Virus genome (UHGV): UHGV-1558314
DNA: 64,000 nt
Reading direction: 5' to 3' (one strand)
Origin: a virus
In this document: positions 1,418 to 64,000 of the stretch, in pieces
Layout of the letters: the number at the start of each line of letters is the position of its first letter
Numbering within the stretch: the first letter of the stretch is position 1
Made by a program: the position numbers and the translations under genes
Notes under the pieces: generated by a model
Seen by the model: the letters and a program-made list of their open reading frames with translations, nothing else
Told to the model about the DNA's origin: nothing
Database searches by the model: none

Positions 1418-1503
1418 ATGCTTAAAATGTGGTGTTTGAATATGTACAAACAAAAAGACTGCTGCAAATTATTGCAGCAGTCTTTGATAATTGCTTGTTT
1501 ATG

Positions 1504-10635: not shown

Positions 10636-10664
10636 ATTATATATTGATATATTACAACATTTGT
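10636..10664 (-). promoter_or_regulatory. conserved phage promoter motif (ATGTTGTAATAT...TATAAT)
   Basis: Minus-sense AAATGTTGTAATATATCAATATATAATATAAAACCTCTACAACAATG; the -10 TATAAT lies about 20 nt before the ATG. Confidence 0.45.
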
Positions 10665-10710
10665 TGTCAATTTGCACAATTGTTGTTAACAAAATGCATT
10701 ACATTGACAA

Positions 10711-14387: not shown

Positions 14388-14404
14388 TCTAAATGAGATT
14401 TAGA
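14388..14404 (-). promoter_or_regulatory. palindromic leader element TCTAAATGAGATTTAGA abutting the helicase start codon
   Basis: Perfect 7-bp inverted repeat with 3-nt spacer at positions -1 to -17 from the ATG; identical element at 21342-21358. Confidence 0.5.
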
Positions 14405-14626
14405 TTATGTTCGAATATATGAGAACATATATTATTTGTAAAGATATAATACTACAAACAGCACACATTTGCACTTTGACATAACTGATTGAGTATCAAT
14501 CAATTATGAGTTTATAAAAGTTTTTCAAAAGTAGGGTGTTGTTGTTTGAGTAGAGTGTTGTTAATGCTGTCAGCTGTCTTGTTAGCATTATCGATTGCTT
14601 GCAAACTATCAGCCGTCATAGAACAT

Positions 14627-15047: not shown

Positions 15048-15929
15048 CTATCGTTTGAATTTGATGAAGTGTTCAGCATCGAGGCCCTCAAATACATACG
15101 GGTCAAGAGTTTCCCAGAAGTTTGAGTATGTCGTTGTCTTTGCAATGCTTGTTTGCTTTGACAAGTTCATATTTGGGTAGCCAAGCATTGCATAGTGTCG
15201 CTCATATATGTGCATTGACGTCGCATTATGCACATATGCGCCAAGCTTAAGACCAAGTTCATTTGCGACAAGTTCTTGCAACAAAGTGAATGCAAACTGG
15301 TCGTTGCAAAAGCCCCAAATGACATCATTGCTTCGCATGTATGTTGTCAAGTACAGCTTATCACCACGAACATTGAAAACAAGATTCAATGTGCATGGCA
15401 TGTCTTTGCCAGTGTAGTTTGCATATTGCGGCTCATAAATGCTAATAACTGCTCGTCTTGTGCATTCATGATTTCGCAAACGTTCAATGACATCTGCAAT
15501 CTGCTTGTGCCAAATTGCGCCATACTGTGAATTGACATTGACACCATCGTCGCTGAATTGCTTCCAACGAGGCAAATAACGTTCAATGCATTCAACTGCA
15601 GGATTGGCTGTCATGTACCACGCAAATTCTGCAGCAGCATTGAGCTTTTTCCATGGTCGTACGTCAATCTTGATTTGCCGCTGTGAAGGGTCCTGAATAA
15701 CTACAGACACATTCAGCAATTCTTTTGTTCGAGTCACTGTTTGTGCATTGTTGCCCTTTGATTCTACAAACTCACCTCTACAATGAAGTTCATACAAAAT
15801 TGAGCGAAATGCTTCTGTTGCAGTGTTTTCAATGATTGTCGTCTGTTGATAACATAAATTTGACGACAATGCTTCAGCATCATTGTACTTTATGCTGTCA
15901 TTGTCATAAGGTGAATTTTTTGTGTGCAT
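15048..15929 (-). CDS. deoxycytidylate 5-hydroxymethylase (T4 gp42-like, ThyA fold)
   Basis: Catalytic Cys in DMPCTLNLVF; YMRSNDVIWGFCNDQFAF closely resembles gp42 NMRSNDVVFGFRNDYAW, with Asp at the position equivalent to ThyA Asn177 / gp42 Asp179. Confidence 0.7.
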   Translation of the reverse strand: MHTKNSPYDNDSIKYNDAEALSSNLCYQQTTIIENTATEAFRSILYELHCRGEFVESKGNNAQTVTRTKELLNVSVVIQDPSQRQIKIDVRPWKKLNAAAEFAWYMTANPAVECIERYLPRWKQFSDDGVNVNSQYGAIWHKQIADVIERLRNHECTRRAVISIYEPQYANYTGKDMPCTLNLVFNVRGDKLYLTTYMRSNDVIWGFCNDQFAFTLLQELVANELGLKLGAYVHNATSMHIYERHYAMLGYPNMNLSKQTSIAKTTTYSNFWETLDPYVFEGLDAEHFIKFKR

Positions 15930-17412: not shown

Positions 17413-20400
17413 TTAACAAATTGATGACGTGCCATCAGTATTTGCTACAACTGTCAATGCACTATCAAACTCATCTTGTTGCAATACATGGTCAACTATG
17501 AGTGTTTTGCGAATTGCAGAAAGCTTGGTAAGCAACTGCATCAACACTTGCTGATAATTGATATTGTTGACATCATGCTCAGCGCCAACAATCTGCCCAT
17601 TGCTAAGCTTGCCACTGATTTCGTCAATGAGCAAGATGTTGCCCACTTTGTTTAAGCGTTGAGTCAAAATGAGATGCACGATTGCAAGACCTGCGAAAGT
17701 TCCTTCCATGCCAGACATTTGACTTACACTTCGAATTGACTTCGAGCCCATCAAGTCAATCATCTTCAACACATTGTTGTCATTGATGTCAAAGAACACT
17801 CGGTAGTTCAATGAATCCAGCAAATCATTGAGCTGTGCATTCAGTGATGTTGCAATTGCTGCAAAGACATATGAAACTAAGCCTCGTTTGCTTGTGCACT
17901 GCTTATATGCATTGTACACCAAGTTTGCAATGTTCCACTTTTTCGAAGCTTGCAAATCTTTCTTGAGAGCTTCAATTCGCACATTGTTTGCTGATAAGTC
18001 TGCTTGCATTGTTGCAATTTCTGCATTGATGCTTAGCAGTTTTGAGTTCGCTTCAGTTTCATGCTGCTTAGCATCATCAATGTCGACTTGCAATGCAGCA
18101 TTTGTTGTAATATGCTGCTGAGTTTGCTGTGCATGTTCAAGTGCAAATGCTGCAGCAGTCTTATCAATCTCAAGTTGTTTAAGCGCAGACTCATATGTCG
18201 CTTTCTTATCATACTCTGCTTGAGCAATTTCAAGTTCAGCATTTATTGCAGCCAGTTCTGATTCTACTGTAGATTTTGATTGCAATACATCTTGCTTTGC
18301 TTGTTCAGCTTTACGTTTGATGTCTGCAAGTTGATTTGTGATATCTGCAATTTGCATTTTGACTGCTTCGACTTCAAGCAATGTTGCTGCAGTAGCCATT
18401 GGTTGTGCAATGAATGCATCTAAGTCTCTTTGCGCATTGACTACAGTTCTCTGCAAATCATTGAGCTTTTCTGCATGCATGTCATATGCTGCTTTGTGTG
18501 CTGGATTCAGTGCAGCAATTATTGCATTTGAATCTGTAACATCTATGATTGCTGCTTGCAGTTGCTCAATTTCATACTTCAAATTGCCAATTTTGACAAC
18601 ATTCTCATTGAATTGCTCTGTCTTTTGCGCACATTCTTGACGCAACTTAGCAAGCTCAGTTGACAACCACAGCTTGTATGCTTGTCCTGTGCCAGATGTC
18701 AAGTCATTTGTACATACAGGGCATTTGTCGTTTTCAAGTTGCTTTTGCTTGTCTATAACATTGTCGATGTTTGTTTTTGCAGCAGATATTTCTGTTCTAA
18801 GTGCATTTTGAACAGTGTTGATGTCTTCAATTTGCTTTTGCAAAGCATCTATTTTTGCCCGAGTGTTTGCATTGTACGACTTGCCAAGATTTATCAGCAC
18901 AGAATCAATGTGCTGCTTTGCTGCATCATATGCAAGCTTTGATTCATCAAGCTTTGTTCTGTACAATGACTCTGCATGCGCAACTTCTTTCTGCACTTTT
19001 GCAGATAGCTCATTCTGTTTTGTAAGCAGCTCAGCATATGTATTGTGCAGCTGTGAGCCAGATGCTATGACATTTGTGTATGCTGTATTAGCTTCATTGT
19101 CAATATTAGTGAGTTGCTGCTCAATCTGTGCTTTTGCTGTTTGCAACTTAGACATATCTTGCAATGCAAGTGCAGCAATGTCAAGCTCAACTTTGTGAAT
19201 CTTTGCAATGATGCCATCGATATTTGCTGTTGCATCTTCTATAGTTAAGATGTCTGCAGGAATTTGATGTAGTTTCTTTGAGAGCTCTTCTACTTTTGCA
19301 CGAGCTTTTGTAAGCTTCGCGGACCACTCTTTTTGATTATCTTGTCGTAACTGCAAAGAGTAATTGAGTTCATTGCAAGTTGTATTGAGAGACTCAAGTT
19401 CTGCTTTTATTGCAACATCAGTCAATGCGGGCTTACTAAGGCCATCAAACAATGCAGCCTTTGCAGCATCATTAGAATTGCCAAGCTGTACAAATGTATT
19501 GATGCCAAGAGTATCAAGTAGCCAGTCATTCAATGAATTTGAGTCCATTGCAATGATTTGGTCAAGTAGTGTCTGATTGATACAAACATATCGCGACAAT
19601 TCCCAGATAGAGCCAAAGATTGCATATAGCGTGTCTTTGATTTCATGCTGCGGCACTACGTAGTCATCTGACAATCTTACAAGCTGAACAGTCTCATTGA
19701 CTGCTGACACGTTATCTCGCCATGAGCCATCTGCATTTATTCGAGAACCTCGTTTGAATTTGCGTTCAAGTGTTCGAATCAATTTGTAGTGAACATTTTG
19801 ACCTGCTACTACATGCACAAAGACACAAGAAGCTTCAAGCTTATCATATGACTCATTGTCAATCAATTTGTCATTGAAGTATGTCAAAGCGTTCTGCTTT
19901 GTTGCTGCAGAAGACTGTTCAGCGTCAATAAAGCCAGTCAGCAGCCATTTGATAAGTCTGAAGATTGTAGTCTTGCCATTGCCATTGTTGCCTCTAACTT
20001 GTGTAAGCTGTGCAAGATTGTCAAAGCTGACATCAACATCTTTCAATGCCATGAACTGATTTGCTTTAACATTTTGAATGACATATTTTGCAACTTCAGT
20101 GTCAAAAGACAATTTATCAATTTGTTCATCAATCAATGACTTGAACATGTCAACAAACTGCTGAGCATCTTCAGTAGCAACTATGGCATTGCGTTCAATG
20201 TATGCATTGACCCAGTCAAGTGCAGCGTCTTTAAGCCATTCAGCAGTTTGAACCTTTTGCAGCAAATTGTCGCCATTTGCGTCTACAGCATTGATTGAAT
20301 CAATGACAGCAGAATCATACAGAATGTCAATTGCAGCAACAACATATGAACTTACAAGATTCTGTGCAATGCGCTCAACAATACCAGACAGTTCGGGCTT

Positions 20401-21339
20401 TGTGACCTTTGACTTGATTTTGATTTTATTGATGCGGCCAGGGTTGATGAGTGCAATCTTGTCTGTTTTGACATCATTATCAATTGTGATTGTATGATAA
20501 TGCACAAGCTGCTCAAGTGGATGCCACTCTACCACAATTCGCTTGTTGTCAATATCGATGTCAAGCAAGTTGTAGCCATGTTCTGCAGTACCATGCTGTA
20601 TTGCAGTGTCATTCAACAAATAGTCGCCTTCACCAAAATCTCTGACAATTGGCGAGCCGCAATATGTTAATGTCTTATCACCAGCAACCCATATTGCATG
20701 CTTATGAATGTCACCCATTGCAACAAAGTTGCTATTAAATTGCATTGCATCTATACGACTGTCATTGTCACCACGAACAATACAATCATCAAAGTTGACA
20801 CAATTCTTTACAGGGTCATGGAACAGCTCAATGACACACATTGATGACAATGCTGCAATCTGCGATTCATCAAGTGATGCCCAAGGCGAATATGTGCCAC
20901 CAGACCACTTCTCATTTTGAGCCCATACTGCAGCAGCAAAACCAGGTGCAAGCAGTTCAACTCTTGAACTGTTGATATACTTGATTCGCTTGTCATCAAT
21001 TGCAGTTACAAGCTTGTCAATGCTATCTGTCCACTGCATTTGTGAACCATCACCAGCATCAAATGTGTTATCACGTTGCTTCAAATCATGATTGCCAGCA
21101 GTAATGACAATTTGAAGCTTGTCATTGACTTCAAGCATGCCTTTGAGCAGCTTAACAAACAGCGACTCTTCAAGTGAATTGCTATTCCAATGCTCAAACA
21201 CGTCGCCGACAATGAATACAAACTCAACTGACTTTGCTTTGTCAATTAGTTGTTTGTTGATGTGCTCATATTCTACGAAACGTCGTAAATGACCTTGTCG
21301 AACATTATATTGAATGTCTGCTATGTGAAGTGCTTTCAT
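17413..21339 (-). CDS. fused Mre11/SbcD nuclease - Rad50/SbcC ATPase (1308 aa)
   Basis: N-terminal phosphoesterase motifs VFIVGDVFEHW, VITAGNHDL, GDIHKH; Walker A GNNGNGKTTIFRLIKWLL; coiled-coil with zinc hook DKCPVCTNDL; signature SGMEGTFAGLAIV; Walker B LLIDEISGKLS. One uninterrupted ORF. Confidence 0.75.
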   Translation of the reverse strand: MKALHIADIQYNVRQGHLRRFVEYEHINKQLIDKAKSVEFVFIVGDVFEHWNSNSLEESLFVKLLKGMLEVNDKLQIVITAGNHDLKQRDNTFDAGDGSQMQWTDSIDKLVTAIDDKRIKYINSSRVELLAPGFAAAVWAQNEKWSGGTYSPWASLDESQIAALSSMCVIELFHDPVKNCVNFDDCIVRGDNDSRIDAMQFNSNFVAMGDIHKHAIWVAGDKTLTYCGSPIVRDFGEGDYLLNDTAIQHGTAEHGYNLLDIDIDNKRIVVEWHPLEQLVHYHTITIDNDVKTDKIALINPGRINKIKIKSKVTKPELSGIVERIAQNLVSSYVVAAIDILYDSAVIDSINAVDANGDNLLQKVQTAEWLKDAALDWVNAYIERNAIVATEDAQQFVDMFKSLIDEQIDKLSFDTEVAKYVIQNVKANQFMALKDVDVSFDNLAQLTQVRGNNGNGKTTIFRLIKWLLTGFIDAEQSSAATKQNALTYFNDKLIDNESYDKLEASCVFVHVVAGQNVHYKLIRTLERKFKRGSRINADGSWRDNVSAVNETVQLVRLSDDYVVPQHEIKDTLYAIFGSIWELSRYVCINQTLLDQIIAMDSNSLNDWLLDTLGINTFVQLGNSNDAAKAALFDGLSKPALTDVAIKAELESLNTTCNELNYSLQLRQDNQKEWSAKLTKARAKVEELSKKLHQIPADILTIEDATANIDGIIAKIHKVELDIAALALQDMSKLQTAKAQIEQQLTNIDNEANTAYTNVIASGSQLHNTYAELLTKQNELSAKVQKEVAHAESLYRTKLDESKLAYDAAKQHIDSVLINLGKSYNANTRAKIDALQKQIEDINTVQNALRTEISAAKTNIDNVIDKQKQLENDKCPVCTNDLTSGTGQAYKLWLSTELAKLRQECAQKTEQFNENVVKIGNLKYEIEQLQAAIIDVTDSNAIIAALNPAHKAAYDMHAEKLNDLQRTVVNAQRDLDAFIAQPMATAATLLEVEAVKMQIADITNQLADIKRKAEQAKQDVLQSKSTVESELAAINAELEIAQAEYDKKATYESALKQLEIDKTAAAFALEHAQQTQQHITTNAALQVDIDDAKQHETEANSKLLSINAEIATMQADLSANNVRIEALKKDLQASKKWNIANLVYNAYKQCTSKRGLVSYVFAAIATSLNAQLNDLLDSLNYRVFFDINDNNVLKMIDLMGSKSIRSVSQMSGMEGTFAGLAIVHLILTQRLNKVGNILLIDEISGKLSNGQIVGAEHDVNNINYQQVLMQLLTKLSAIRKTLIVDHVLQQDEFDSALTVVANTDGTSSIC

Positions 21340-21341
21340 AT

Positions 21342-21358
21342 TCTAAATGAGATTTAGA
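21342..21358 (-). promoter_or_regulatory. palindromic leader element TCTAAATGAGATTTAGA just upstream of the Mre11-Rad50 start codon
   Basis: Same 17-bp palindrome as at 14388-14404, at -3 to -19 from the ATG. Confidence 0.5.
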
Positions 21359-21386
21359 TTATATGTTGATATTGTACAACATGCAA
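21358..21386 (-). promoter_or_regulatory. sigma-70-like promoter TTGCAT-N17-TATAAT with conserved TTGTACAA core
   Basis: Minus-sense TTGCATGTTGTACAATATCAACATATAAT, about 18 nt upstream of the ATG at 21339. Confidence 0.55.
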
Positions 21387-21418: not shown

Positions 21419-21766
21419 TTATTTTGCAAGCATTTTGCTGATTGCATCTATCACAGTTTCACTGAGCAAGTAGTAGACAACGCTTATCAGCAATGATATC
21501 AGTACTGCAGCTGTGATAAATTGCAACGCATTCACAATTGCACGCACAAATGTTATCTGTGTGTTGTATGCAAGCACTATGCAGCATAGCACAATAATGA
21601 CACACCAGACTACAATTGCATATGCAGGCATCAATGAATTTGTCCATATGCAGTACAATACAGTAGTTAGCATCAAAAATGCTATTGCTCTGATGACTGA
21701 CACAATGATGTCTATGTAGAGCTTCATTACACGTAAATGAACTCTTGGCTTATGCGGTTTCATCAT
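21419..21766 (-). CDS. small membrane protein
   Basis: ORF 21419..21829 trimmed to internal Met; hydrophobic segments IIVSVIRAIAFLMLTTVLYCIW, AIVVWCVIIVLCCIVLAY, AAVLISLLISVVYYLL. Confidence 0.4.
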   Translation of the reverse strand: MMKPHKPRVHLRVMKLYIDIIVSVIRAIAFLMLTTVLYCIWTNSLMPAYAIVVWCVIIVLCCIVLAYNTQITFVRAIVNALQFITAAVLISLLISVVYYLLSETVIDAISKMLAK

Positions 21767-23001
21767 GACTTTATGTACAATTCTGCAAGTTGTCTGGTGT
21801 ACAATCGTGGATTGTGATATGCTTTCCAATATGCAGTAGACTTTATTGCAGCAAGAATCTCATCATAATGTTTGACTGCTTTTGCTACAACTTCATCAAG
21901 TACATGCAAATCTTCTACACTAACAAGCAGCCATTTTTCTACAATGTCAATGAATTCTTGATTGCAATTAAAGCCATATTTGTAGTTGCAAGTGTCAAGT
22001 ACAAGTGGGATGCAGTCATTTGTCAGTGCTTCAAAAAATCTACGAAGACTGAAACAATTCTCATCATATGATGGAATGCTTAATGTAAACTTGGCAGTCT
22101 TGATGAGTTGCAAATACTCTTCGTATGGAATCAGAGGACCATTGTGCTTCCACTGATTGTTATGTCGTCTTGTTGTGTACTTGAACAAAAACTTTGAACT
22201 GTCAAGCTCACAAAGATGGTCCATGCGTAAAATGTAGTTATAGCGGTCTCTTCTATCAGGCCAACTGTCAGTCATTGCAAACACAAAGTCTCTTTGCTTG
22301 TCACATTTTGCTGACATACCTCTATGCTGACACATGCAGTACCAATATTGCTGCGATGGACTGAACTCGAACTTTGAGTGATGCTCACTGCCATCTTTGC
22401 ATTGTTGAACGTAAATATTGTCAGGCACAAAGTGAAAGTAGAAATGTCGAATTTGCAAGCCGTCAATGTAGTCAAGCTTATGCTGCAATGGGTCCTCACA
22501 GAAATTGTAACACTGAATGCGTTTTGCTGCAGCATACTCAGCAACTATGAATGTGCACACCCATTGCAATGCGATGTCTTCACTCTTCAAAAAGTCAACA
22601 AGTGGCTCATTTGGATGCGCTTTGCATTCATTGAACATTTTGTACCACTTGCATTGCTCCATGTCATACTTGGAGACTGTATTGCCATTAAAAAATGACA
22701 CAGTATCAATTTTGAATGCCTCAAGTTGTTTATGCACAATGTCGATTGCTTGTGCATATGTGACAGTCTCATCAGACATTATTTGTGCAAACTTGATTGG
22801 ATGCGCATGCAAATTTGCAATTGTGTCTGCTGACATTTTGCGCTGTGTATGATAATCGACATACAAAAACTGACACTTGTCTGTAAGCAATTCAAGCATT
22901 GCTACAGATTTCCATCGAATTGCTTGAAAGAAATTGAAGTGCGCAGTTTGAAAAATGAGATGCGTAGGCTTGTCAGAATGAGTCAAAGTTTGCATGGACA
23001 A
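21763..23001 (-). CDS. putative DNA glycosyltransferase, GT-B-like (paralog A1)
   Basis: Paralogous to 26026..27582 (shared EDPLQHKL[D/N]YID, SPSQQYWY, IPSYDENCFSLRRFFEALTNDCIPLV). The C-terminal S-L-R-x-F-x-E...P-L-V patch resembles the catalytic region of phage beta-glucosyltransferase. Family assignment is from memory. Confidence 0.45.
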   Translation of the reverse strand: MSMQTLTHSDKPTHLIFQTAHFNFFQAIRWKSVAMLELLTDKCQFLYVDYHTQRKMSADTIANLHAHPIKFAQIMSDETVTYAQAIDIVHKQLEAFKIDTVSFFNGNTVSKYDMEQCKWYKMFNECKAHPNEPLVDFLKSEDIALQWVCTFIVAEYAAAKRIQCYNFCEDPLQHKLDYIDGLQIRHFYFHFVPDNIYVQQCKDGSEHHSKFEFSPSQQYWYCMCQHRGMSAKCDKQRDFVFAMTDSWPDRRDRYNYILRMDHLCELDSSKFLFKYTTRRHNNQWKHNGPLIPYEEYLQLIKTAKFTLSIPSYDENCFSLRRFFEALTNDCIPLVLDTCNYKYGFNCNQEFIDIVEKWLLVSVEDLHVLDEVVAKAVKHYDEILAAIKSTAYWKAYHNPRLYTRQLAELYIKS

Positions 23002-24158
23002 ATGTCGCAGTTATGTTGATGTTTGTGTTTATTTATGAAGTCATATGTCACTGCAAAAAAGTGCTTTGCAATGTCATATCGAGTTTTCAAATATGCTGCT
23101 TGTCGTTCACAAAATGCTGCATAAATATCTGGGTGTTGTTTGAATGCTGCAATGCGTTGCTGTACTTGTTCTGCAGAATGCACATATGACACTTTGCTCA
23201 AATATACATCATCTGCAAATAATCGTTTGTCTTTGTCAACTGCGCAATCAACAAAAGTTGCAATTCGTGCAACAATTGCTTCACCGACACGATTTGGTAT
23301 TAGCCCATATTGCTCATATTGCTGTTCGCCGATAGCAATGTGTGCTGCTGCATATGACATTGCATATGGCACACTATAAAATGGCACACTAAAATCAAAT
23401 GAACAATTTGACTGCAGCAATTGTGTTTGTGCATCAGACAATCTACTTGTCAAGTTGCCTGTATATTTGTGCTCACCAAGAAAACTTGAGCGACAGCCTG
23501 AATCTACATAGTATCGAATGACTTTGTTTATGCGACTGTCAGATAGCATATGCCAATCTCTTGTAGCATATATCAAGTCTACTGTTTTTGCGCCAATATG
23601 ACGAGGCTCTATCGCAACATTGCTGTATGTTGGCAGCATAAACAATGGCAGCCATTTGACATTGTTGAACACTGAATGCTCATTTGACAAATTCATGCAC
23701 TGGCTAAGTTCAAGTACTGGCTCATCATACACGCCATGTAGCTCAACTCTGCCTGCATGCACAAAGTTGACACGCTTAAATGGAAATCGCATATCAGTGC
23801 AAACTGTCATTCTTGCTGCAATAGACATTCGCCACATAGCATGCAGCTTAACAACTGCTTCTGCTTGAGGTCGAGGCAACATATTTAGCAAATCAATCCA
23901 GCCGCCCCACAAAATCCAAACATCATTTGAACAGATGTTGAATTGCAAACTCAATATGTCTTCTACTGTTGTAGCAATAATGTCATGCCCATTGATGCTT
24001 GCAAGGTGTTTTCGTTGATTTGCAATAATAATGACTTGACTGAATGGAGACTCTGGAAATGACACAAGCGCTTTTGCAAACAACACGGGTTCTTGCGACA
24101 CCAAGTTGTTTGAGTATGGGTCGATTATGCAATCAAGCTTGTGTATGAAGAGTCTCAT
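22983..24158 (-). CDS. hypothetical DNA-modification-associated protein (paralog B1)
   Basis: Paralogous to 27579..28745 (similar N-termini MRLFIHKLD / MSKLFILKFD; shared L[L/I]PNR[W/V]-x-E-x-[V/I] near C-terminus). Sits immediately upstream of A1, as B2 does of A2. Confidence 0.4.
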   Translation of the reverse strand: MRLFIHKLDCIIDPYSNNLVSQEPVLFAKALVSFPESPFSQVIIIANQRKHLASINGHDIIATTVEDILSLQFNICSNDVWILWGGWIDLLNMLPRPQAEAVVKLHAMWRMSIAARMTVCTDMRFPFKRVNFVHAGRVELHGVYDEPVLELSQCMNLSNEHSVFNNVKWLPLFMLPTYSNVAIEPRHIGAKTVDLIYATRDWHMLSDSRINKVIRYYVDSGCRSSFLGEHKYTGNLTSRLSDAQTQLLQSNCSFDFSVPFYSVPYAMSYAAAHIAIGEQQYEQYGLIPNRVGEAIVARIATFVDCAVDKDKRLFADDVYLSKVSYVHSAEQVQQRIAAFKQHPDIYAAFCERQAAYLKTRYDIAKHFFAVTYDFINKHKHQHNCDICPCKL

Positions 24159-25153: not shown

Positions 25154-25195
25154 CAACATGCAAAATGTATTTGCATTTTGATACAACATATATTG

Positions 25196-25411
25196 TCATT
25201 TTGCACAGTCTGATGCAATTAAATCTTTGTCAAAGCATTCATCTATAATGTCTTCAATAAGATACGCTTCGACATTGTTAAGCTTCAAGATATCTACGAG
25301 TTTTGCTTTGATATCGCAAGCTAATGCAGATTCGACTGTATGCAATATGACTGATGATACGACATGCTTGTCTGTCATCATTTGTAATTGCTGTGGTGTT
25401 ACTCTACTCAT
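25196..25411 (-). CDS. hypothetical small protein (71 aa)
   Basis: ORF track; 4-nt overlap with the upstream kinase gene. Confidence 0.35.
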   Translation of the reverse strand: MSRVTPQQLQMMTDKHVVSSVILHTVESALACDIKAKLVDILKLNNVEAYLIEDIIDECFDKDLIASDCAK

Positions 25412-26025: not shown

Positions 26026-27582
26026 TCATTGCACTTCTACGAATGGCTCTTTCAACACAAAGCTGTCACCATTGCAACATGCGGCTGAGCCATCGTCTGC
26101 ATCAAGTGCGCATGACATATCAGACTTGCAGAACTTGCAATATGAACATGACCATGCATGACTCATAAAGTTGTTTGCTTCACAAATTACACAGCGCTCA
26201 TGTGAAAGTGTATTGTCGCAATTGTCACAAGACTTCTTGATTGGCACATCTTTATTGATATATGCAAGATGCAATGCAATATCATACACAAAGTCACCCG
26301 TATATTGCTGAATGAAATCAGTGTGCCACAACTCTTTTAACAATTGTGTATGTCTATATGGCTGAACAATGTCTTCAAGATGCTGCAAGTCATCATCGCT
26401 AACCATGAGCTTCTTAATGACAAACTGTTTGAACTGCGGCCATCTGTCAAACATATAGAGTTTGCATGAGTTGTGCACAAGTGGAACACAGCCAAGCACA
26501 ATGCTTTCACAGAATCTACGCAAACTAAAACAGTTTGCATCATATGACGGCACAATCAATGTGAATCTGCTATGCTTGATGAGTTCAAGGTATGTGTCAT
26601 ATGGCAGTAGCTTGTCTGACAATGGCTGCTGTTGCTTGTCCCTGCTGAAAAATCTGAACACAATGCCTTTATCAATTGCATCTTGATTGTGCAGATGCAT
26701 GAGTTTGTTGATGAGTTCTGTGCGTTCAGTTTTGTCTCGCCAAGTATTCGTCAATGCAAATGCAAAATTCAGTCGCTTGTCATCAAACGTCGCTTCAATG
26801 TCATCCCAAGTTTTGTCATGCAAATACCAGTATTGCTGTGATGGGCACCATCCATAATATGCAATAGCGTCTTGTTCTGCTGTAACGTCATACACATATG
26901 CAGAATTGTATTCAAGGCCAAGCCCTTTGACATTGTTGCAGTCATGAAAGTACCAATGCTGCACTTTGAATATCTTTGATGCACTGAATGCGCTTTCATA
27001 TGGCCCTGAATAGCGATAGTCAATGTAATTGAGCTTGTGCTGCAATGGGTCTTCGACAAAGTTGTTTATGACTGTGCCTTGTTGTTTGCCATTAGTCTTG
27101 CGAGCATTCAATGCAATATTGTACTGCATAATGACTGACAGCATCTCATACACTACATACATGAGTGCTTTGTAGACTGAGCCTGCTGCGTCAATTAGCG
27201 GCAAATCACGTTTGACTGATGCAGTACCAAATGTCTTGCAATATGCAGAAAATGTATCAAGTTCTGCCTGTTGAAATGAATTGCATGCGCCATTGAATAT
27301 GTTGAATGTTGCAATGTAGCTCATATTACAAGATGTCATTGACATATCAAGACGCTTCATAATGTCAGCAATGCGACATTGAGCAAAATCTGACACATCA
27401 ACATATTTGACATGATGACCTGATGCAGTCAAGCCAACTGCGACTTCTTTCATTTGTGGCACAAAGCCTACTACAATGAACAAGTCATCTTTGTTTGCTC
27501 GTTCAAACATTGCTGCACTTTTCCAAGTCAATGAATTGAAAAAGTCTATGTAGCCAGTCTGTGTGATGATATGTGTTCTCAT
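26026..27582 (-). CDS. putative DNA glycosyltransferase, GT-B-like (paralog A2) with Cys-rich C-terminal tail
   Basis: Paralog of 21763..23001 (VEDPLQHKLNYID, CPSQQYWY, VPSYDANCFSLRRFCESIVLGCVPLV). Extra C-terminal Cys cluster (CDNCDN...CVICE...CSYCKFCK). Confidence 0.45.
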   Translation of the reverse strand: MRTHIITQTGYIDFFNSLTWKSAAMFERANKDDLFIVVGFVPQMKEVAVGLTASGHHVKYVDVSDFAQCRIADIMKRLDMSMTSCNMSYIATFNIFNGACNSFQQAELDTFSAYCKTFGTASVKRDLPLIDAAGSVYKALMYVVYEMLSVIMQYNIALNARKTNGKQQGTVINNFVEDPLQHKLNYIDYRYSGPYESAFSASKIFKVQHWYFHDCNNVKGLGLEYNSAYVYDVTAEQDAIAYYGWCPSQQYWYLHDKTWDDIEATFDDKRLNFAFALTNTWRDKTERTELINKLMHLHNQDAIDKGIVFRFFSRDKQQQPLSDKLLPYDTYLELIKHSRFTLIVPSYDANCFSLRRFCESIVLGCVPLVHNSCKLYMFDRWPQFKQFVIKKLMVSDDDLQHLEDIVQPYRHTQLLKELWHTDFIQQYTGDFVYDIALHLAYINKDVPIKKSCDNCDNTLSHERCVICEANNFMSHAWSCSYCKFCKSDMSCALDADDGSAACCNGDSFVLKEPFVEVQ

Positions 27583-30845: not shown

Positions 30846-30874
30846 CATATATGAATATATTGTACAACATGTAT
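30846..30874 (-). promoter_or_regulatory. conserved promoter motif (ATACAT-N17-TATATG variant)
   Basis: Minus-sense ATACATGTTGTACAATATATTCATATATG, 16 nt upstream of the ATG at 30829. Confidence 0.45.
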
Positions 30875-30970
30875 TGAGCTTTTGCACAACATATGTTGTT
30901 AAAATATCATCATTGTACAACATAAAGCGCATATTTGCACGTTGTGTTGCTAAAAATATTGTTATTGTAC

Positions 30971-37337: not shown

Positions 37338-37398
37338 GTTATTTGTATATGTATTGTGCAACATGCATATTCATATTGTATATGAATATGATACAACA
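37338..37398 (-). promoter_or_regulatory. two tandem copies of the conserved promoter motif upstream of the SSB gene
   Basis: Minus-sense TTCGCATGTTGTATCATATTCATATACAAT and ATATGCATGTTGCACAATACATATACAAAT. Confidence 0.45.
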
Positions 37399-37416
37399 TG
37401 CGAATATCATTTGCAC

Positions 37417-40576: not shown

Positions 40577-40846
40577 TTAGACGTTTTGTAGTTCTACAAT
40601 ATCATATCGCTTATGCAATTCAGACCAGTCACGAACGTAGCCTGTCATAAAGACATGCAACATGTATGGCTTGCTGTCAACATACTTGACTGCACCTGCA
40701 GCATCTTTGATTTGCTTGGCAGTTAGCCAAACTTCTGCGTTGTTACTTGTGTATACGCAATGATACACAGGCTCTGACAATTCAGTCACTGTGATTTTCT
40801 TGCCATTGCGCAATATGCATCGTACTTGTTTGCCCATTGCTTGCAA
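40577..40846 (-). CDS. small hypothetical protein (paralog of 41180..41476)
   Basis: Shared segments VTELSEPVYHCVY / ITELAQPVFPCFVY and GYVRDWSEL / GYVRGWTEL. Confidence 0.4.
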   Translation of the reverse strand: MQAMGKQVRCILRNGKKITVTELSEPVYHCVYTSNNAEVWLTAKQIKDAAGAVKYVDSKPYMLHVFMTGYVRDWSELHKRYDIVELQNV

Positions 40847-40886
40847 TTTATGATATTGTTAAGATATCTACAAAAAGCAATGCACT

Positions 40887-41183
40887 CTACAAAAAGCAAT
40901 GCACCATAAAACCCAAGAACATAATTATTGCAGGCTGCATGATGCAATACATAAAGAACTGTGCAGCAATCGGCAATTCATTGAACTTGTTGACTGTGTC
41001 ATGATTCTTGAACAATGCCAGTACAAATGATATCCCAATTGCATGCTTAAGCGATAACGCAGTCAATGCGGGCCACACAGGCATCACAAACCACTCCCAG
41101 AAGTTCATAATAATGCAGCCATTCAGAATATAGCCTAACAGCATGAACATAATGCATGCAACAGTTGTCAGAAAGTTTTTCAT
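40887..41183 (-). CDS. small membrane protein (3 TM; holin-like candidate)
   Basis: ORF track; three hydrophobic segments in a 98-aa protein. Confidence 0.4.
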   Translation of the reverse strand: MKNFLTTVACIMFMLLGYILNGCIIMNFWEWFVMPVWPALTALSLKHAIGISFVLALFKNHDTVNKFNELPIAAQFFMYCIMQPAIIMFLGFMVHCFL

Positions 41184-43202: not shown

Positions 43203-43514
43203 TTAATACTGAGTTTTTGCAGATATAGCTACTTTAATTGCTGCTTTAATTTGTTCGATTGCATCTTGTGAGAACAATTCTGGCACTGCTAAATAGTGAT
43301 ACCATGATGTTGGCGCTGCCTGCATATCAGTTCGTTTAATTGCGAACCGAAGTTCTTTTGGTGAACCAAGGCAACCCATATATTGGCAGCTTATTAGCTT
43401 AACTTGCACATTGTTAATGCTGCTATGAATAGCAAGATGAGACAGATTTATTCTGTCATAGAATTTTAGATGCTTGAGTTGTTTTTCAATTGCTTTGAAT
43501 GCGTTTGTATTCAT
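43203..43514 (-). CDS. hypothetical protein (103 aa)
   Basis: ORF track; promoter/5' UTR (AAACCTCTACAACA-ATG) near-identical to that of gene 10397..10618. Confidence 0.4.
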   Translation of the reverse strand: MNTNAFKAIEKQLKHLKFYDRINLSHLAIHSSINNVQVKLISCQYMGCLGSPKELRFAIKRTDMQAAPTSWYHYLAVPELFSQDAIEQIKAAIKVAISAKTQY

Positions 43515-43587
43515 TGTTGTAGAGGTTTGTATACTATATTGATATATGATAATTGTACTACAAATTTATCAAATTTGCACTGATTTA

Positions 43588-45404: not shown

Positions 45405-45587
45405 TTATGCAATGTGACATGAAAGCAACACTGCAAACTTTTCATCGAATGCAATGTCACCTACGTTATAACAAGAGATTGAGCCAGATATGTGACCCCC
45501 CCAATTCAATTTGAATGTCATAAAGCTTATGAGTTTGTAAATGTTTGTTTTGTTTATATATTTTGACTGCCCATATGTACATATCAA
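45405..45587 (-). other. small upstream ORF (60 aa) containing a G7 tract, in frame with and 6 codons upstream of gene D
   Basis: ORF track; ...FKLNWGGHISG... spans the G7 tract. Confidence 0.3.
45496..45502 (-). repeat. homopolymeric G7 tract (C7 on plus strand)
   Basis: gtgaccccccccaatt read directly. Confidence 0.9.
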
Positions 45588-45658
45588 AACAACATCTTAG
45601 TTGTTTTGCATCTTGCATCAAAACAACATCTTAGTTGTTTTGCATCTTGCATCAAAAC
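45583..45658. repeat. tandem direct repeat (34-bp unit, 2.2 copies), each unit containing a 9-bp-stem hairpin
   Basis: atcaaaacaacatcttagttgttttgcatcttgc repeated; CAAAACAAC / GTTGTTTTG inverted repeat inside each unit. Confidence 0.8.
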
Positions 45659-48095: not shown

Positions 48096-48166
48096 TGTTA
48101 CTGTGCAATTTTTAATTGTTTGACATGATATTTATATGCATTGCTTAAGCAATGTTGAATTGACAT

Positions 48167-59621: not shown

Positions 59622-59648
59622 ATCAGTTAATTTGTTTGTATATGTATT

Positions 59649-59722
59649 CGAATGTGCACACATGAGAATAGGTCTCTTCGAATGTGCACATATGAGAATA
59701 AGTCTCTTCGAATATGCGCACA
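59649..59722. repeat. tandem direct repeat (30-bp unit, about 2.5 copies) with TGTGCACA palindromes
   Basis: cgaatgtgcacacatgagaataggtctctt / cgaatgtgcacatatgagaataagtctctt / cgaatatgcgcaca; related atttgtgcgcatatc at 59611-59625. Confidence 0.8.
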
Positions 59723-61933: not shown

Positions 61934-62464
61934 TTATGAAAGCTGAGCCGTAGTGTACCAAGTTAAGTCAGATTCATTGTACGTCAATGCAATTGTAAGA
62001 GCTTGACCAAGTTGCTGTGACAATTGCTTACATGAATCAATGAATGCTTGCATATCTGCATATGACTTTGTGTAGAACATGCCCCATTCTGTTGTATTGA
62101 CTGCGACATTATGAACATCTGCAAGATGACAGACTTCTACAGATGATACATTAAAGTCTGAGCCATCTTCATCAACATGATGCACATTGTTTGCGCACCA
62201 ATACTGATACAAACGAGCTTTGTCTGATGCAGTCATGTCAAACTGCATGCGTTGAGCAATTGATTCATCGACATTATCAATGAATTGCTTTGCTGACTTT
62301 GATTCAAGCATCGCATGATGCAGTGTATGATTTGCATGCCAGTCTGGAGTGCCGATTGCTACGCTAAGCTGATTTTCAAACACAAATTGTTGTGCTTGAG
62401 CTTCTTCGTAGCATTGTGTCCATGTCTTTGTCATGTTGTTTATCTTAAGTTTGTATATGTACAA
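61934..62464 (-). CDS. hypothetical protein (176 aa)
   Basis: ORF track. Confidence 0.4.
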   Translation of the reverse strand: MYIYKLKINNMTKTWTQCYEEAQAQQFVFENQLSVAIGTPDWHANHTLHHAMLESKSAKQFIDNVDESIAQRMQFDMTASDKARLYQYWCANNVHHVDEDGSDFNVSSVEVCHLADVHNVAVNTTEWGMFYTKSYADMQAFIDSCKQLSQQLGQALTIALTYNESDLTWYTTAQLS

Positions 62465-62490
62465 ATAATGTTGATGTTGTATTGAAGCAT

Positions 62491-62533
62491 CGCAAAATAA
62501 GGCCAGACTACTCGGTTGAGCTTGCCTGGCCTT
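62491..62533 (-). terminator. putative terminator after sigma factor gene
   Basis: 8-bp stem AAGGCCAG / CTGGCCTT with long loop, followed on the minus strand by TTATTTTG. Confidence 0.35.
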
Positions 62534-62551
62534 TCAAATGCATTTTGCTTA

Positions 62552-63448
62552 TTACAGTGTTCCGCAAAGCAATTCACGTAAATCCATGCCGGCTTGTGTA
62601 CTGTACTGAGCAATAAGATTACGTTCTGAATCAGACATACTCCAATAAATCTTATGCAGAGCTCTACGAATAATAGTATGAATGCCAGATGTGCTACAAT
62701 TGAACTTCTTTGCAAGTTCTGCATGAGTTAACAAATCAGCATCGCCAAGGCCATACACATGTGTGAGTACAAGCTTTTCATTTTGAGTGAGTTGTTCAAA
62801 TGCTCTTTGCAGAATCTTTGTGATACGTTTGTGAGCATCTTCGATTTCAAGAACTTCTTGGCCTGTTTTGAAGTCTGACCTCAAATCATTCTGAACTGGT
62901 GACCATGCGTCACCATCTTTGTCAAGTGTAGTGTCATCCTTGCTGATGAATTGCTTGCCTTCAAGAGCTCTTTCATATGCTCCACGAATACCAGTAGATA
63001 ATTGTTGACTTGTCAGATTGAGTTCGTCAAGCACATATTTCTTAATCCAAGGATATGCATATGTGCTAAACTTTGCTTCACGAACTCCTGCAGGCAATAC
63101 GCCTTCTACGTAATTCTTGGCTGCTATTGACAATCCAAGATTGCCTGCTTGAATGACGTCATCAAATGGAACCGAGCGTTTGCCAGATGCGAACCATAAG
63201 CTTCGTGCAACTGATATGACCAATCTTAAACAAGATTTGATAAGAGCTTCACGATTTTCTTGAGTCTTCTTGAATCGAGTAACATCACAATATCGCTTTG
63301 CAGTAGCCAGCGATTTGACTTCTTCAGGAGTAAGCTCATTCTCCATCCTCATTTGCTTGAGCTCTTCCTTTGTGTATAGACGTTCTCTTGTGATTCTACC
63401 TACGTCCTTTACGTAGCCTTGATTGATTTGTGAATTTGAACCTGCCAT
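62552..63448 (-). CDS. sigma-70-family RNA polymerase sigma factor (regions 2 and 4)
   Basis: Region 2: DDVIQAGNLGLSIAAKNY and FSTYAYPWIKKYV; region 4 HTH: LTQNEKLVLTHVYGLGDADLLTHAELAKKFNCSTSGIHTIIRRALHKI. Confidence 0.7.
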   Translation of the reverse strand: MAGSNSQINQGYVKDVGRITRERLYTKEELKQMRMENELTPEEVKSLATAKRYCDVTRFKKTQENREALIKSCLRLVISVARSLWFASGKRSVPFDDVIQAGNLGLSIAAKNYVEGVLPAGVREAKFSTYAYPWIKKYVLDELNLTSQQLSTGIRGAYERALEGKQFISKDDTTLDKDGDAWSPVQNDLRSDFKTGQEVLEIEDAHKRITKILQRAFEQLTQNEKLVLTHVYGLGDADLLTHAELAKKFNCSTSGIHTIIRRALHKIYWSMSDSERNLIAQYSTQAGMDLRELLCGTL

Positions 63449-63581
63449 GGTTGTGTAACTTATTTAGTTTTAATTTGTTATATAAATTTAATCATTTTTT
63501 GTCACATATGAAAATGTTTTGCACATTATTGTCACATAAAGTGTAAAAAAGTTATGAACATTTTGTTAACACATGTAGACA

Positions 63582-64000
63582 TCAAACCATTTCATTCAAC
63601 TTGTCGACGTTCTTTTTAGCGTCTGCACTTTGTACAAATGCATAGACATTATCATAGACTTTGCTAATTGCTGCATCTGTGTAATCATAGAAGCTGTGTC
63701 GAGTTCTTGAAGTTCTGCCACCTTTGATGCCAAGTGATGCTTTGTCAGAATCTGATGGTTTCCAATATGTTCGTCCAAACCCCGTAGATAGAATCATACT
63801 TTCCACGCCAGACCTATCTCGTGGCATAGCATGTTTCAAATGGCAAGTTACAATGAAGTCAGTTGGAAAGTCATCATAGCCAAGCTCACTTGATGCAGGT
63901 TGAATGTCAGTCTTCGTTAAGATAAGATTGCCAATGCTTGCTATGGGTCGAAGTGGGTTTCCTAATAGCAAGTGCCATTCGCCGATGGCGTCGCCCTTCA
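63582..64000 (-). CDS. hypothetical protein, 5' end beyond window; weak calcineurin-like phosphoesterase resemblance
   Basis: Frame is open to the window edge (…KGDAIGEWHLLLGNPLRP…); the listed ORF start at 63971 is a TTG. GD-x-x-G...LLLGN loosely recalls the GD...GNH[DE] metallophosphatase motif. Confidence 0.35.
   Translation of the reverse strand, partial: KGDAIGEWHLLLGNPLRPIASIGNLILTKTDIQPASSELGYDDFPTDFIVTCHLKHAMPRDRSGVESMILSTGFGRTYWKPSDSDKASLGIKGGRTSRTRHSFYDYTDAAISKVYDNVYAFVQSADAKKNVDKLNEMV

What the first reader, a model, noticed from the sequence alone, without database searches (positions are those of the whole stretch)
62552..63448. Phage-encoded sigma-70-family sigma factor with repeated TGTCACATA motifs upstream
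Clear region 2 (FSTYAYPWI) and region 4 HTH place this in the sigma-70 family, unlike the minimal T4 gp55. The upstream intergenic region carries two direct copies of TTGTCACATA (63499-63508 and 63529-63538), possible autoregulatory or activator sites. This sigma factor is a candidate reader of the conserved promoter family.
Basis: partly seen in the sequence, partly recalled or inferred. Interest (0 to 1): 0.5.

Follow-up and report, generated by a model that had tools for sequence, protein, structure and literature searches.

The report
Phage sigma factor with host-type promoter
This is a real but uncharacterised phage-encoded sigma factor of a known kind (relatives are annotated in PAU/PTm1-like jumbo phages); the repeated 10-mer upstream is a strain-private coincidence lying inside a conserved promoter that looks like the Bacteroidota host's own type.

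Summary
The ORF (62552-63448, minus strand, 298 aa) is a genuine sigma-70-family protein. Pfam regions 2 and 4 score above their curated cut-offs, a confident AlphaFold model matches solved sigma factors, and the core-binding and -10-melting residues are conserved. No sigma-3 domain is detected, and there is a conserved C-terminal extension.

It belongs to a small metagenome-only clade (11 clusters). The closest cultured relatives are the sigma factors of Tenacibaculum phage PTm1, Chryseobacterium phage MA9V-1 and Sphingomonas phage PAU. In all relatives examined except MA9V-1 the gene sits at the head of the same baseplate module.

Both TTGTCACATA copies exist, but the exact pair is private to this strain. 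Three contigs with 98-99% identical proteins have one substitution in each copy. A 10-nt repeat arises in about 8% of shuffles of this AT-rich spacer.

What is conserved upstream is a Bacteroidota-type promoter (TTTC-N19-TAAATTTA). The proximal copy lies in its spacer.

Likely mechanism (inferred): host RNA polymerase makes the sigma factor early. The factor then redirects core enzyme to phage promoters with TAYAAT-type -10 elements that the host sigma should not read. Which promoter family it reads is unresolved. This is a new member of a known kind, of modest interest.

The parts
62552..63448 (-). Sigma-70-family gene, 298 aa. Layout: N-terminal helices (about residues 10-49, aligned to region 1.2 of RpoD/SigA), sigma-2 (about 63-146), an acidic linker or 'finger' (about 147-195, no three-helix sigma-3 domain), sigma-4 (196-270), and a conserved C-terminal extension (273-298).
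63483..63490 (-). TAAATTTA. It matches the Bacteroidota -7 promoter element TAHHTTTG at 7 of 8 positions (A instead of G at -5). A TAHHTTT(G/A) box is present upstream of the sigma gene in all 14 relatives' sigma upstream regions examined.
   Evidence: consensus from PMC6847099
63477..63496 (-). Conserved block AATGATTAAATTTATATAAC (consensus TTTTGATTAAwTTTAtAtA). It is the most conserved stretch of the upstream region and occurs only once in the 64-kb window.
63510..63513 (-). TTTC, exactly 19 nt upstream of the -7 box. This is the position of the Bacteroidota -33 element (TTTG).
63499..63508 (-). It lies in the -33/-7 spacer. Its 5' part (ATATGT, TGTGA) is position-conserved in several relatives and in two MA9V-1 promoters.
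63529..63538 (-). Distal copy of the motif. Only its TGA core (about -50 from the -10-like hexamer) is position-conserved. The 10-mer is mutated in the 98-99% relatives.
62491..62533 (-). Intrinsic terminator after the sigma gene: GGCCAG...CTGGCC hairpin followed by UUAUUUUG.
   Evidence: -29 kcal/mol, z -5.06, 0 of 200 shuffles as stable. A hairpin at the same place is visible in the relatives.
62448..62462 (-). GTACATATACAAACT, a 'class C' late-type promoter-like motif directly after the terminator and 14 nt before the next gene. It is a candidate target of the sigma factor.
59633..59647 (-). ATACATATACAAACA, a class C motif in front of the baseplate-wedge gene.
37392..37416 (-). A 'class A' bipartite promoter-like site, GTGCAAWW-N10-TGTTGTA (that is, -35 GTGCAA, 17 bp, -10 TAYAAT), in front of the gp32-like gene. 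Other strict copies lie at 30916-30940, 30863-30887, 25182-25206 and 10653-10677, all on the minus strand. It is a candidate target of the sigma factor.

Best explanation
The gene encodes a phage alternative sigma factor of the sigma-70 family.

Step 1 (inferred from promoter form). The host's own RNA polymerase holoenzyme transcribes the gene from a Bacteroidota-type promoter, TTTC-N19-TAAATTTA. This promoter is conserved upstream of every ortholog. It stands apart from the flanking transcription units and is closed by a strong terminator. The sigma factor would therefore be an early product.

Step 2 (inferred from conserved residues and fold). The protein binds host core RNA polymerase. Region 2.2 (IQAGNxGL) would contact the beta-prime coiled coil and region 4 the beta flap.

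Step 3 (inferred, unresolved in detail). It directs the enzyme to phage-specific promoters whose -10 elements are of the TAYAAT/TATAAA type, which the diverged Bacteroidota primary sigma factor should not read. My split is as follows.
- About 0.45: its main targets are the bipartite 'class A' promoters (GTGCAAWW, 17-bp spacing, TGTTG-TAYAAT). These lie in front of replication, nucleotide-metabolism and DNA-modification genes.
- About 0.35: it reads, alone or with a co-factor, the single-block 'class C' promoters ((G/A)TACATATAaAAAC). These lie in front of structural genes.

The two TATGTGACAA copies are not a pair of dedicated operator sites. The proximal copy is part of the promoter spacer, and the exact repetition is a strain-specific coincidence.
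For: Sigma identity.
- Pfam r2 and r4 score above their cut-offs, as does TIGR02937.
- Against PDB sequences the best matches are SigA/RpoD/RpoS, with region 2 and region 4 aligned.
- The AF2 model has mean pLDDT 84. All top Foldseek PDB hits are sigma factors at probability 1.0.
- The top viral hit is the PTm1 sigma factor.
- Invariant residues across 12 family members include Q100/G102/N103/G105 (region 2.2) and K126-A131, W134 (KFSTYA..W, region 2.3).

Host-type promoter.
- The TAHHTTT(G/A) box aligns without gaps in 9 orthologous upstream regions.
- It is also found upstream of the sigma genes of L130, L131, MA9V-1 and PTm1.
- L131 has a textbook TTTG-N19-TAAATTTG.
- The window promoter resembles MA9V-1 orf21 over about 45 nt.
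- The published consensus is TTTG/TAHHTTTG (PMC6847099).

Bacteroidota host.
- 0 of 62 genes have a Shine-Dalgarno-like 4-mer, and A is enriched at -3.
- The cultured relatives infect Tenacibaculum and Chryseobacterium.

Separate regulation.
- The terminator has z -5.06.
- Different motif classes sit on the flanking genes.
- The class B core occurs once in 64 kb.

Candidate targets.
- Class A has five strict copies, all on the gene strand with identical spacing. It precedes the gp32-like, helicase and SbcC-like genes.
- A class C weight matrix built only from relatives picks 59633, 62448 and 1433 in the window. These lie in front of a baseplate-wedge gene and in structural-gene regions.
- No TTTG..TAnnTTTG promoter lies in front of any other gene of the window.
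- No other sigma or RNA polymerase Pfam family occurs in 48 further window proteins.

Synteny. The order sigma, two small genes, a gene of about 436 aa, a small gene, then baseplate wedge is kept in L002, L005, L006, L008, L130 and cultured PTm1.
Against: - Nothing here shows core binding or transcription.
- The -7 box has A where host promoters have a nearly invariant G, and the -33 element is TTTC rather than TTTG. Recognition by the host sigma factor is therefore plausible, not shown.
- The block just upstream of the box (TTTTGAT) is more conserved than a host promoter would require. An unknown factor may bind it.
- Only 64 kb of a genome of about 175 kb was seen. A second sigma factor or a gp55/gp33-like pair could lie elsewhere and read one or both promoter classes.
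- Class C promoters have no -35 element. That fits a region-2-only factor better than a sigma factor with a conserved region 4.
- Class A sites also occur inside the structural region of relatives. The functional split between the classes is not clean.
Confidence: 0.6

Rival explanations
1. It is a late-gene sigma factor, the functional counterpart of T4 gp55 (plus gp33) in one chain. It would read only the class C motifs (TACATATAaAAAC, some containing TATAAATA) in front of structural genes. Region 4 would hold the beta flap without reading a -35 element.
For: - The gene sits at the head of the baseplate module in every relative examined except MA9V-1, including PTm1.
- Class C motifs flank it on both sides in relatives and precede structural genes in the window.
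- A variant, CATATAAATATC, in the 48096-48166 spacer contains the T4 late core TATAAATA.
- The phage has T4-like genes: a gp32-like protein, a beta-glucosyltransferase-like protein and thymidylate-synthase-family proteins.
- T4 gp55-gp33 fusions work as a single pseudo-sigma (PMC2988020).
Against: - There is no detectable similarity to gp55.
- Region 4, including its recognition helix, is conserved within the clade, which suggests DNA reading. Class C has no -35 element.
- A host-type promoter shared with small, presumably early genes in MA9V-1 would place synthesis well before late genes. This is compatible with the rival but not specific to it.
Confidence: 0.3
2. One reading: the two TGTCACATA copies are binding sites of a regulator, or of the sigma holoenzyme itself, that controls the sigma gene (autoregulation or activation).
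For: - There are two exact 10-mers 30 nt apart.
- ATGTG occurs four times in the 133-nt spacer.
- Short cores (TGTGA at about -24, TGA at about -50) are position-conserved.
- A related palindrome, ATGTGCACAT, is repeated with a 30-nt period upstream of the baseplate-wedge gene.
Against: - Both copies carry a substitution in three contigs with 98-99% identical protein.
- There is no repeat in the 32-78% relatives.
- The chance of such a repeat in this spacer is about 8%.
- The motif is not enriched in the window.
- The sigma promoter does not resemble class A or class C, so self-reading is unlikely.
Confidence: 0.12
3. The sigma factor acts mainly on the host. It would mimic a host alternative sigma factor and switch on a host regulon, as the sporulation-type sigma factors of some Bacillus phages do.
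For: Phage sigma factors that alter host programmes exist (bioRxiv 10.1101/2021.11.12.468384, listed). NCBIfam gives partial similarity to RpoS, RpoH and SigK.
Against: - No specific bacterial family cut-off is reached.
- The nearest bacterial sequences are only about 28% identical.
- No close homologue was found in 185,579 species genomes.
- The position within the structural module is strictly conserved.
- The phage carries abundant non-host promoter motifs that need a reader.
Confidence: 0.05

Closest known systems
Sigma factors of the PAU / PTm1 / MA9V-1 group of jumbo myoviruses (PAU gp1, PTm1 ORF-168, MA9V-1 ORF23)
   Same: - They are the best phage matches by sequence, at 27-32% identity, and by fold.
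- PTm1 keeps the same gene order from sigma to baseplate wedge.
- They have the same kind of upstream TAHHTTT(G/A) promoter box.
- The G(M/I)DL(R/Q)ELL motif after region 4 is shared with MA9V-1.
   Different: - Identity is low.
- MA9V-1 ORF23 is 387 aa with about 147 extra C-terminal residues.
- The region 4 recognition helix is not conserved in MA9V-1.
- Genome size (about 175 kb) and habitat (apparently gut metagenomes) differ.
- None of these proteins appears to have been studied experimentally. The MA9V-1 paper only annotates the gene.
'RpoD-like complete' sigma factors of group 2 (T4-like) jumbo phages (Iyer et al. 2021, PMC7824862)
   Same: It is a phage without a recognisable RNA polymerase of its own in the part seen. 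It has T4-like replication and SSB genes and a fuller sigma factor rather than only a minimal one.
   Different: No sigma-3 domain is detected here. I could not check whether a minimal gp55-like sigma factor or gp33 is also present.
T4 gp55 + gp33 (split late sigma factor)
   Same: The phage background is T4-like. The late-type motif resembles TATAAATA and lacks a -35 element. One chain with regions 2 and 4 would cover both roles (PMC2988020).
   Different: There is no sequence similarity to gp55. Region 4 is a true sigma-70 region 4. No sliding-clamp link is shown: a search for a shared C-terminal tail in window proteins found nothing.
Bacillus phage SPO1 gp28 and coliphage phiEco32 gp36
   Same: These are early or middle phage-encoded sigma-70-family proteins that replace the host sigma factor and drive the next temporal class. 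phiEco32 gp36 reads a long -10-only motif (own knowledge; the phiEco32 system is cited in PMC12276001 and PMC4331800, listed).
   Different: The clades are unrelated. The host has a non-canonical primary promoter type. The targets here are undefined.

Membership tests
Sigma-70 family | Region 2 (core binding, -10 recognition and melting) | tested here: met
   PF04542 scores 34 bits against 24. The sequence IQAGNLGL...KFSTYAYPWI aligns to SigA/RpoD regions 2.2-2.3. These residues are invariant in the family.
Sigma-70 family | Region 4 helix-turn-helix | tested here: met
   PF04545 scores 31 bits against 24.1. The region aligns to SigA region 4. The model has helices 196-270.
Sigma-70 family | Overall fold like solved sigma factors | tested here: met
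   The top 50 Foldseek PDB hits are all sigma factors or sigma-containing holoenzyme complexes, at probability 1.0 and E down to 2e-7. TM-scores are low (about 0.3), as expected for a multi-domain protein modelled off the enzyme.
Sigma-70 family | Binds core RNA polymerase and confers promoter-specific initiation | not testable with these tools
   This needs biochemistry.
Group 1/2 sigma (RpoD/RpoS type) | Region 3 domain, region 1.1, and family-specific profile scores | tested here: not met
   There is no PF04539 hit, whereas the bacterial hits carry it. The model shows only short elements between residues 147 and 195. NCBIfam RpoD/RpoS models score 46-70 bits against cut-offs of 354-555.
Group 4 (ECF) sigma | Compact two-domain protein with ECF-type region 4 | tested here: inconclusive
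   The architecture is two-domain-like. However, PF08281 scores 18.9 against a cut-off of 25.7. There is a helical N-terminal extension of about 60 aa. The best region-2 matches are group 1 sigma factors. TIGR02937 is a superfamily-level model.
T4 gp55-type late sigma | Sequence similarity to gp55 | tested here: not met
   Only general sigma-factor PHROGs are hit. tblastn against 50,697 phage records finds no T4-like phage.
PAU/PTm1-type phage sigma clade | Homology plus conserved position ahead of the baseplate-wedge module | tested here: met
   BLASTP against MA9V-1 gives E 6e-21 and against PTm1 E 6e-16. The PTm1 gene order ORF-168 to ORF-173 matches the window.
Bacteroidota primary-sigma promoter (for the sigma gene's own promoter) | -7 element TAHHTTTG with a -33 TTTG about 19 nt upstream | tested here: inconclusive
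   The window has TAAATTTA (7 of 8 positions, A for G at -5) and TTTC at N19. Distant relatives L131, PTm1 and MA9V-1 have the full TAHHTTTG. The transcription start is not mapped.

The most novel reading that the evidence does not exclude
The clade could be one half of an orthogonal transcription system in Bacteroidota phages. In this reading the phage supplies a 'canonical-type' sigma factor, made from a host-type promoter. That factor reads E. coli-like -35/-10 promoters (GTGCAA, 17 bp, TAYAAT) and T4-late-like blocks that the diverged host sigma factor cannot use. Phage middle and late genes would thus be insulated from the host machinery. The protein would be a single-chain equivalent of T4's split gp55/gp33 sigma. 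Its conserved GxDLxELL tail would serve as a docking site for a still unknown co-activator.
Probability: 0.2. Interest if true: 0.55.

Novelty: new member of a known kind. Interest (0 to 1): 0.3.

Why it matters
Phage-encoded sigma factors that reprogramme host RNA polymerase are textbook biology. Homologues of this one are already annotated in related cultured phages, so the gene itself is not a surprise.

The modest value lies elsewhere.
- No member of this PAU/PTm1-like sigma clade appears to have been studied.
- The hosts are Bacteroidota, whose primary promoters are unusual.
- The window offers a compact, testable set: one sigma gene with a host-like promoter and two clearly different phage promoter families.

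If the sigma-promoter pairing were established, it could give orthogonal expression parts for Bacteroides. It would also describe a temporal programme for a widespread group of large gut phages.

Tried and rejected
- Megablast of the region against 50,697 phage records found no match.
- A scan of 185,579 species genomes with the family alignment returned only ordinary bacterial sigma factors at 24-46% identity. It gave no prophage and no host clue.
- The alignment-based scan of IMG/VR was swamped by generic sigma factors.
- The first AlphaFold run, with 12 sequences, was unusable (pLDDT 50). A 60-sequence alignment fixed this.
- Reading the proximal copy as a -35 hexamer (GTGACA-17-TATAAC) was replaced by the -33/-7 reading once distant relatives were aligned.
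- A sliding-clamp-binding tail, as in T4 gp55/gp33, was considered. No other window protein shares the C-terminal motif, and in MA9V-1 the motif is internal. This is left as speculation.
- The idea that the class-A-driven pair of genes (about 200 aa and 160 aa) near sigma in relatives is a gp55/gp33-like pair gave no PHROG support.
- Rfam found no RNA family in 62300-64000.
- The spacer RNA has no significant fold (z -0.49), and there is no terminator upstream of the gene.
- Similarity to the MzaA defence sigma factor is partial only (58.7 bits against a cut-off of 800).
- A search for host-type TTTG..TAnnTTTG promoters elsewhere in the window found only sites inside genes.

Full report
THE OBSERVATION

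The ORF at 62552-63448 (minus strand) starts with ATG and encodes 298 aa.
- Pfam finds Sigma70_r2 (residues 69-143, 34 bits against a cut-off of 24) and Sigma70_r4 (216-267, 31 bits against 24.1).
- NCBIfam's superfamily model TIGR02937 scores 69.5 against a cut-off of 42.9. None of the specific RpoD, RpoS, RpoH, SigK or FliA models comes near its cut-off.
- PHROG 351, 'RNA polymerase sigma factor', matches at E 3.8e-26.

The two TTGTCACATA copies are at the stated coordinates, 30 nt apart.

THE PROTEIN

Against PDB sequences the best matches are primary sigma factors (SigA 7e-9). Region 2 and region 4 align separately.

Family conservation:
- Twelve family members (43-98% identical) align end to end.
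- Invariant residues fall in region 2.2 (Q100, G102, N103, G105) and region 2.3 (K126-A131 = KFSTYA, W134).
- Others fall in an acidic segment (S169-K170-D171), region 4 (S254, R262, K266) and a C-terminal extension (E275, R276, G287, D289, R291, C295).

Structure:
- A shallow alignment gave a poor model.
- A 60-sequence alignment gave mean pLDDT 84.
- The model has N-terminal helices, a sigma-2 bundle (63-146), only short elements between 147 and 195, sigma-4 (196-270) and two extra C-terminal helices.
- No region 3 profile is hit, whereas the bacterial homologues all carry it.
- Foldseek against the PDB returns only sigma factors.
- Against viral models the top hit is the PTm1 sigma factor.

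I conclude it is a genuine sigma-70-family protein with an atypical layout: region 1.2-like, then sigma-2, a linker and sigma-4, with no sigma-3 and an added tail.

RELATIVES

- The close family is small. There are 11 clusters in a 5.8-billion-protein search, all from metagenomes, followed by a drop to about 28% identity with bacterial sigma factors.
- Only 4 clusters reach E below 1e-60 in the exhaustive profile search.
- A 174.6-kb IMG/VR contig carries a 99% identical copy.
- No species genome holds a close copy.
- Among cultured phages the best matches are Sphingomonas phage PAU gp1, Chryseobacterium phages MA9V-1/2 and Tenacibaculum phages PTm1/5, at 27-32% identity.
- The gene order is kept in L002, L005, L006, L008, L130 and PTm1: sigma, two small genes, a gene of about 436 aa, a small gene, then baseplate wedge.
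- The MA9V-1 paper only annotates the gene as RpoS-like.
- A survey of jumbo phages already notes that T4-like 'group 2' phages carry either minimal or RpoD-like sigma factors (PMC7824862).

THE REPEAT

A direct repeat of at least 10 nt appears in 8.3% of dinucleotide-preserving shuffles of this 133-nt, 75% A+T spacer. The 10-mer is not enriched in the window.

The comparative evidence is more telling.
- In three contigs whose sigma protein is 98-99% identical (L001, L125, L126) the distal copy reads TATGTGAAAA and the proximal copy CATGTGACAA.
- In the relatives at 32-78% identity there is no repeat.
- The perfect pair is therefore private to this strain.

WHAT IS CONSERVED UPSTREAM

Nine orthologous spacers align without gaps over about 60 nt.
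- The strongest block is TTTTGATTAAwTTTAtAtA. In the window this is 63477-63496, and its core occurs only once in 64 kb.
- Inside the block lies TAAATTTA or TAATTTTA. This matches the Bacteroidota -7 element TAHHTTTG except for A in place of G at -5.
- TTTC lies exactly 19 nt upstream, where the -33 TTTG would be (consensus from PMC6847099).

More distant sigma genes carry the full element.
- L131 has TTTG-N19-TAAATTTG.
- PTm1 has TATTTTTG.
- MA9V-1 has TATATTTG.

The window's promoter resembles that of MA9V-1 orf21, a small gene just upstream of that phage's sigma gene, over about 45 nt. Compare TTTTCATATGTgacAAAAAtgatTAaATTTAtATAACAAATTAAA with TTTTCATATGTtgtcAAAAAtgccTAtATTTAcATAACAAATTAAA.

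Its ATATGT part belongs to a deeply conserved promoter. Of the distal copy only a TGA core is position-conserved.

Homology between the window and its 98-99% relatives starts about 115 nt upstream of the ATG. Beyond that point they carry an unrelated gene. The spacer therefore travels with the sigma gene.

HOST

- None of 62 gene starts has a Shine-Dalgarno-like 4-mer.
- The upstream regions are A-rich and G-poor, with A at -3 in 52% of genes. This is the Bacteroidota pattern (PMC6847099).
- Together with the hosts of the cultured relatives and a weak BACON-domain hit, this points to a Bacteroidota host. This is an inference.

SURROUNDINGS AND CANDIDATE TARGETS

A strong intrinsic terminator follows the gene (-29 kcal/mol, z -5.06). 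Apart from the sigma promoter, two motif families are evident.

Class A is GTGCAAWW-N10-TGTTGTA, that is -35 GTGCAA, 17 bp, -10 TAYAAT.
- It has five strict copies, all on the gene strand with identical spacing, plus looser ones.
- It is conserved in L002, L006 and L008.
- It precedes the gp32-like, helicase and SbcC-like genes and the region encoding thymidylate-synthase-family and glucosyltransferase-like proteins.

Class C is (G/A)TACATATAaAAAC.
- It often lies directly after a terminator and 12-25 nt before a start codon, with no conserved -35 element.
- A weight matrix built only from relatives picks 59633, 62448 and 1433 in the window. These lie in front of a baseplate-wedge gene and in structural-gene regions.
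- A variant, CATATAAATATC, contains the T4 late core TATAAATA.

Neither family resembles the host consensus. No host-type TTTG..TAnnTTTG promoter precedes any other gene in the window. One possible exception was seen at 43559-43573. No other sigma or RNA polymerase family was found in 48 further window proteins.

MECHANISM

Shown:
- sigma-family membership;
- conserved core-binding and melting residues;
- a conserved promoter of its own, distinct from those of its neighbours;
- a terminator;
- conserved position in the genome.

Inferred:
- The host holoenzyme makes the sigma factor early.
- The sigma factor then takes core enzyme to phage promoters with TAYAAT-type -10 elements.

The bipartite class A promoters fit a sigma factor with regions 2 and 4 best, and I give this about 0.45. 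The genomic position and the T4-like late motif argue for class C, at about 0.35. It may read both. Only 64 kb of about 175 kb was visible, so a second factor cannot be excluded.

VERDICT

The sigma factor is real and belongs to a known kind. The repeat is not a meaningful feature in itself. The interesting residue is an uncharacterised sigma clade in Bacteroidota phages with a clear, testable promoter set.

Noticed in passing
window 10653-10677, 25182-25206, 30863-30887, 30916-30940, 37392-37416 (minus); looser copies at 21375, 25152, 37357, 44346, about 14420, about 43550: A conserved bipartite promoter-like family, GTGCAAWW-N10-TGTTGTA(Y)AAT, with fixed spacing. All copies are on the gene strand, in the 10-45 kb replication and nucleotide-metabolism region. 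It is also present in relatives L002, L006 and L008.
   Followed up: partly
window 62448-62462, 59633-59647, 1433-1447 (minus); 45577-45591 (plus); variant CATATAAATATC in 48096-48166: A single-block motif, (G/A)TACATATAaAAAC, often right after a terminator and 12-25 nt before the start codon of structural genes. It resembles the T4 late promoter TATAAATA and is conserved in all relatives and in PTm1 (ATACATACAATAAAG before ORF-170).
   Followed up: partly
window 59647-59722: A 30-nt tandem repeat (2.5 copies, 89% matches) between a terminator and the class C motif of the baseplate-wedge gene. Each unit carries the perfect palindrome ATGTGCACAT next to TTCGAA, which looks like an operator array. 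Relatives have other repeats (for example ...AGCAAGCTTCGAA... in L005) at the same place.
   Followed up: no
window 45583-45658: A perfect 34-nt tandem repeat (2.2 copies), immediately downstream of a plus-strand class C-like motif, in a region where gene orientation switches. It could be a small RNA or a regulatory array.
   Followed up: no
window 40867-40904: A perfect 19-nt tandem duplication (GTGCATTGCTTTTTGTAGA on the gene strand) upstream of the small gene at 40577-40837.
   Followed up: no
window about 14388-14410 and 21340-21362 (minus): An identical 22-nt leader, CATAATCTAAATCTCATTTAGA (hairpin TCTAAAT-ctc-ATTTAGA), directly before the start codons of the helicase gene (12510-14387) and the 1308-aa SbcC-like/metallophosphoesterase gene (17413-21339).
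   Followed up: no
window 10764-11822, 15048-15929, 21763-24158, 26026-27582, plus one of the small genes: Two thymidylate-synthase-family genes, a dCMP deaminase, and several glycosyltransferase or beta-glucosyltransferase-like genes. Together they suggest T4-style hypermodified (hydroxymethylated and glycosylated) DNA.
   Followed up: no
whole window (62 gene starts): There are no Shine-Dalgarno sequences at all (0 of 62). Leaders are A-rich and G-poor, with A at -3 in 52%. Nearly all genes are on one strand. This fits a Bacteroidota host.
   Followed up: yes
window 63582-64000 versus L001/L125 upstream genes: In the window the gene upstream of sigma is the conserved syntenic gene of about 500 aa (50% identical to L006's). 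In the 98-99% strains an unrelated 434-aa gene lies there instead. Homology resumes about 115 nt before the sigma ATG, so there is a recombination or insertion boundary at the edge of the promoter region.
   Followed up: partly
window 43559-43573 (minus): TTTGATAAATTTGTA: a full host-type TAAATTTG box overlapping a class A-like TTTGTAGTACAAT, upstream of the 103-aa gene at 43203-43514. Besides the sigma promoter it is the only other host-like promoter candidate seen in the window.
   Followed up: no
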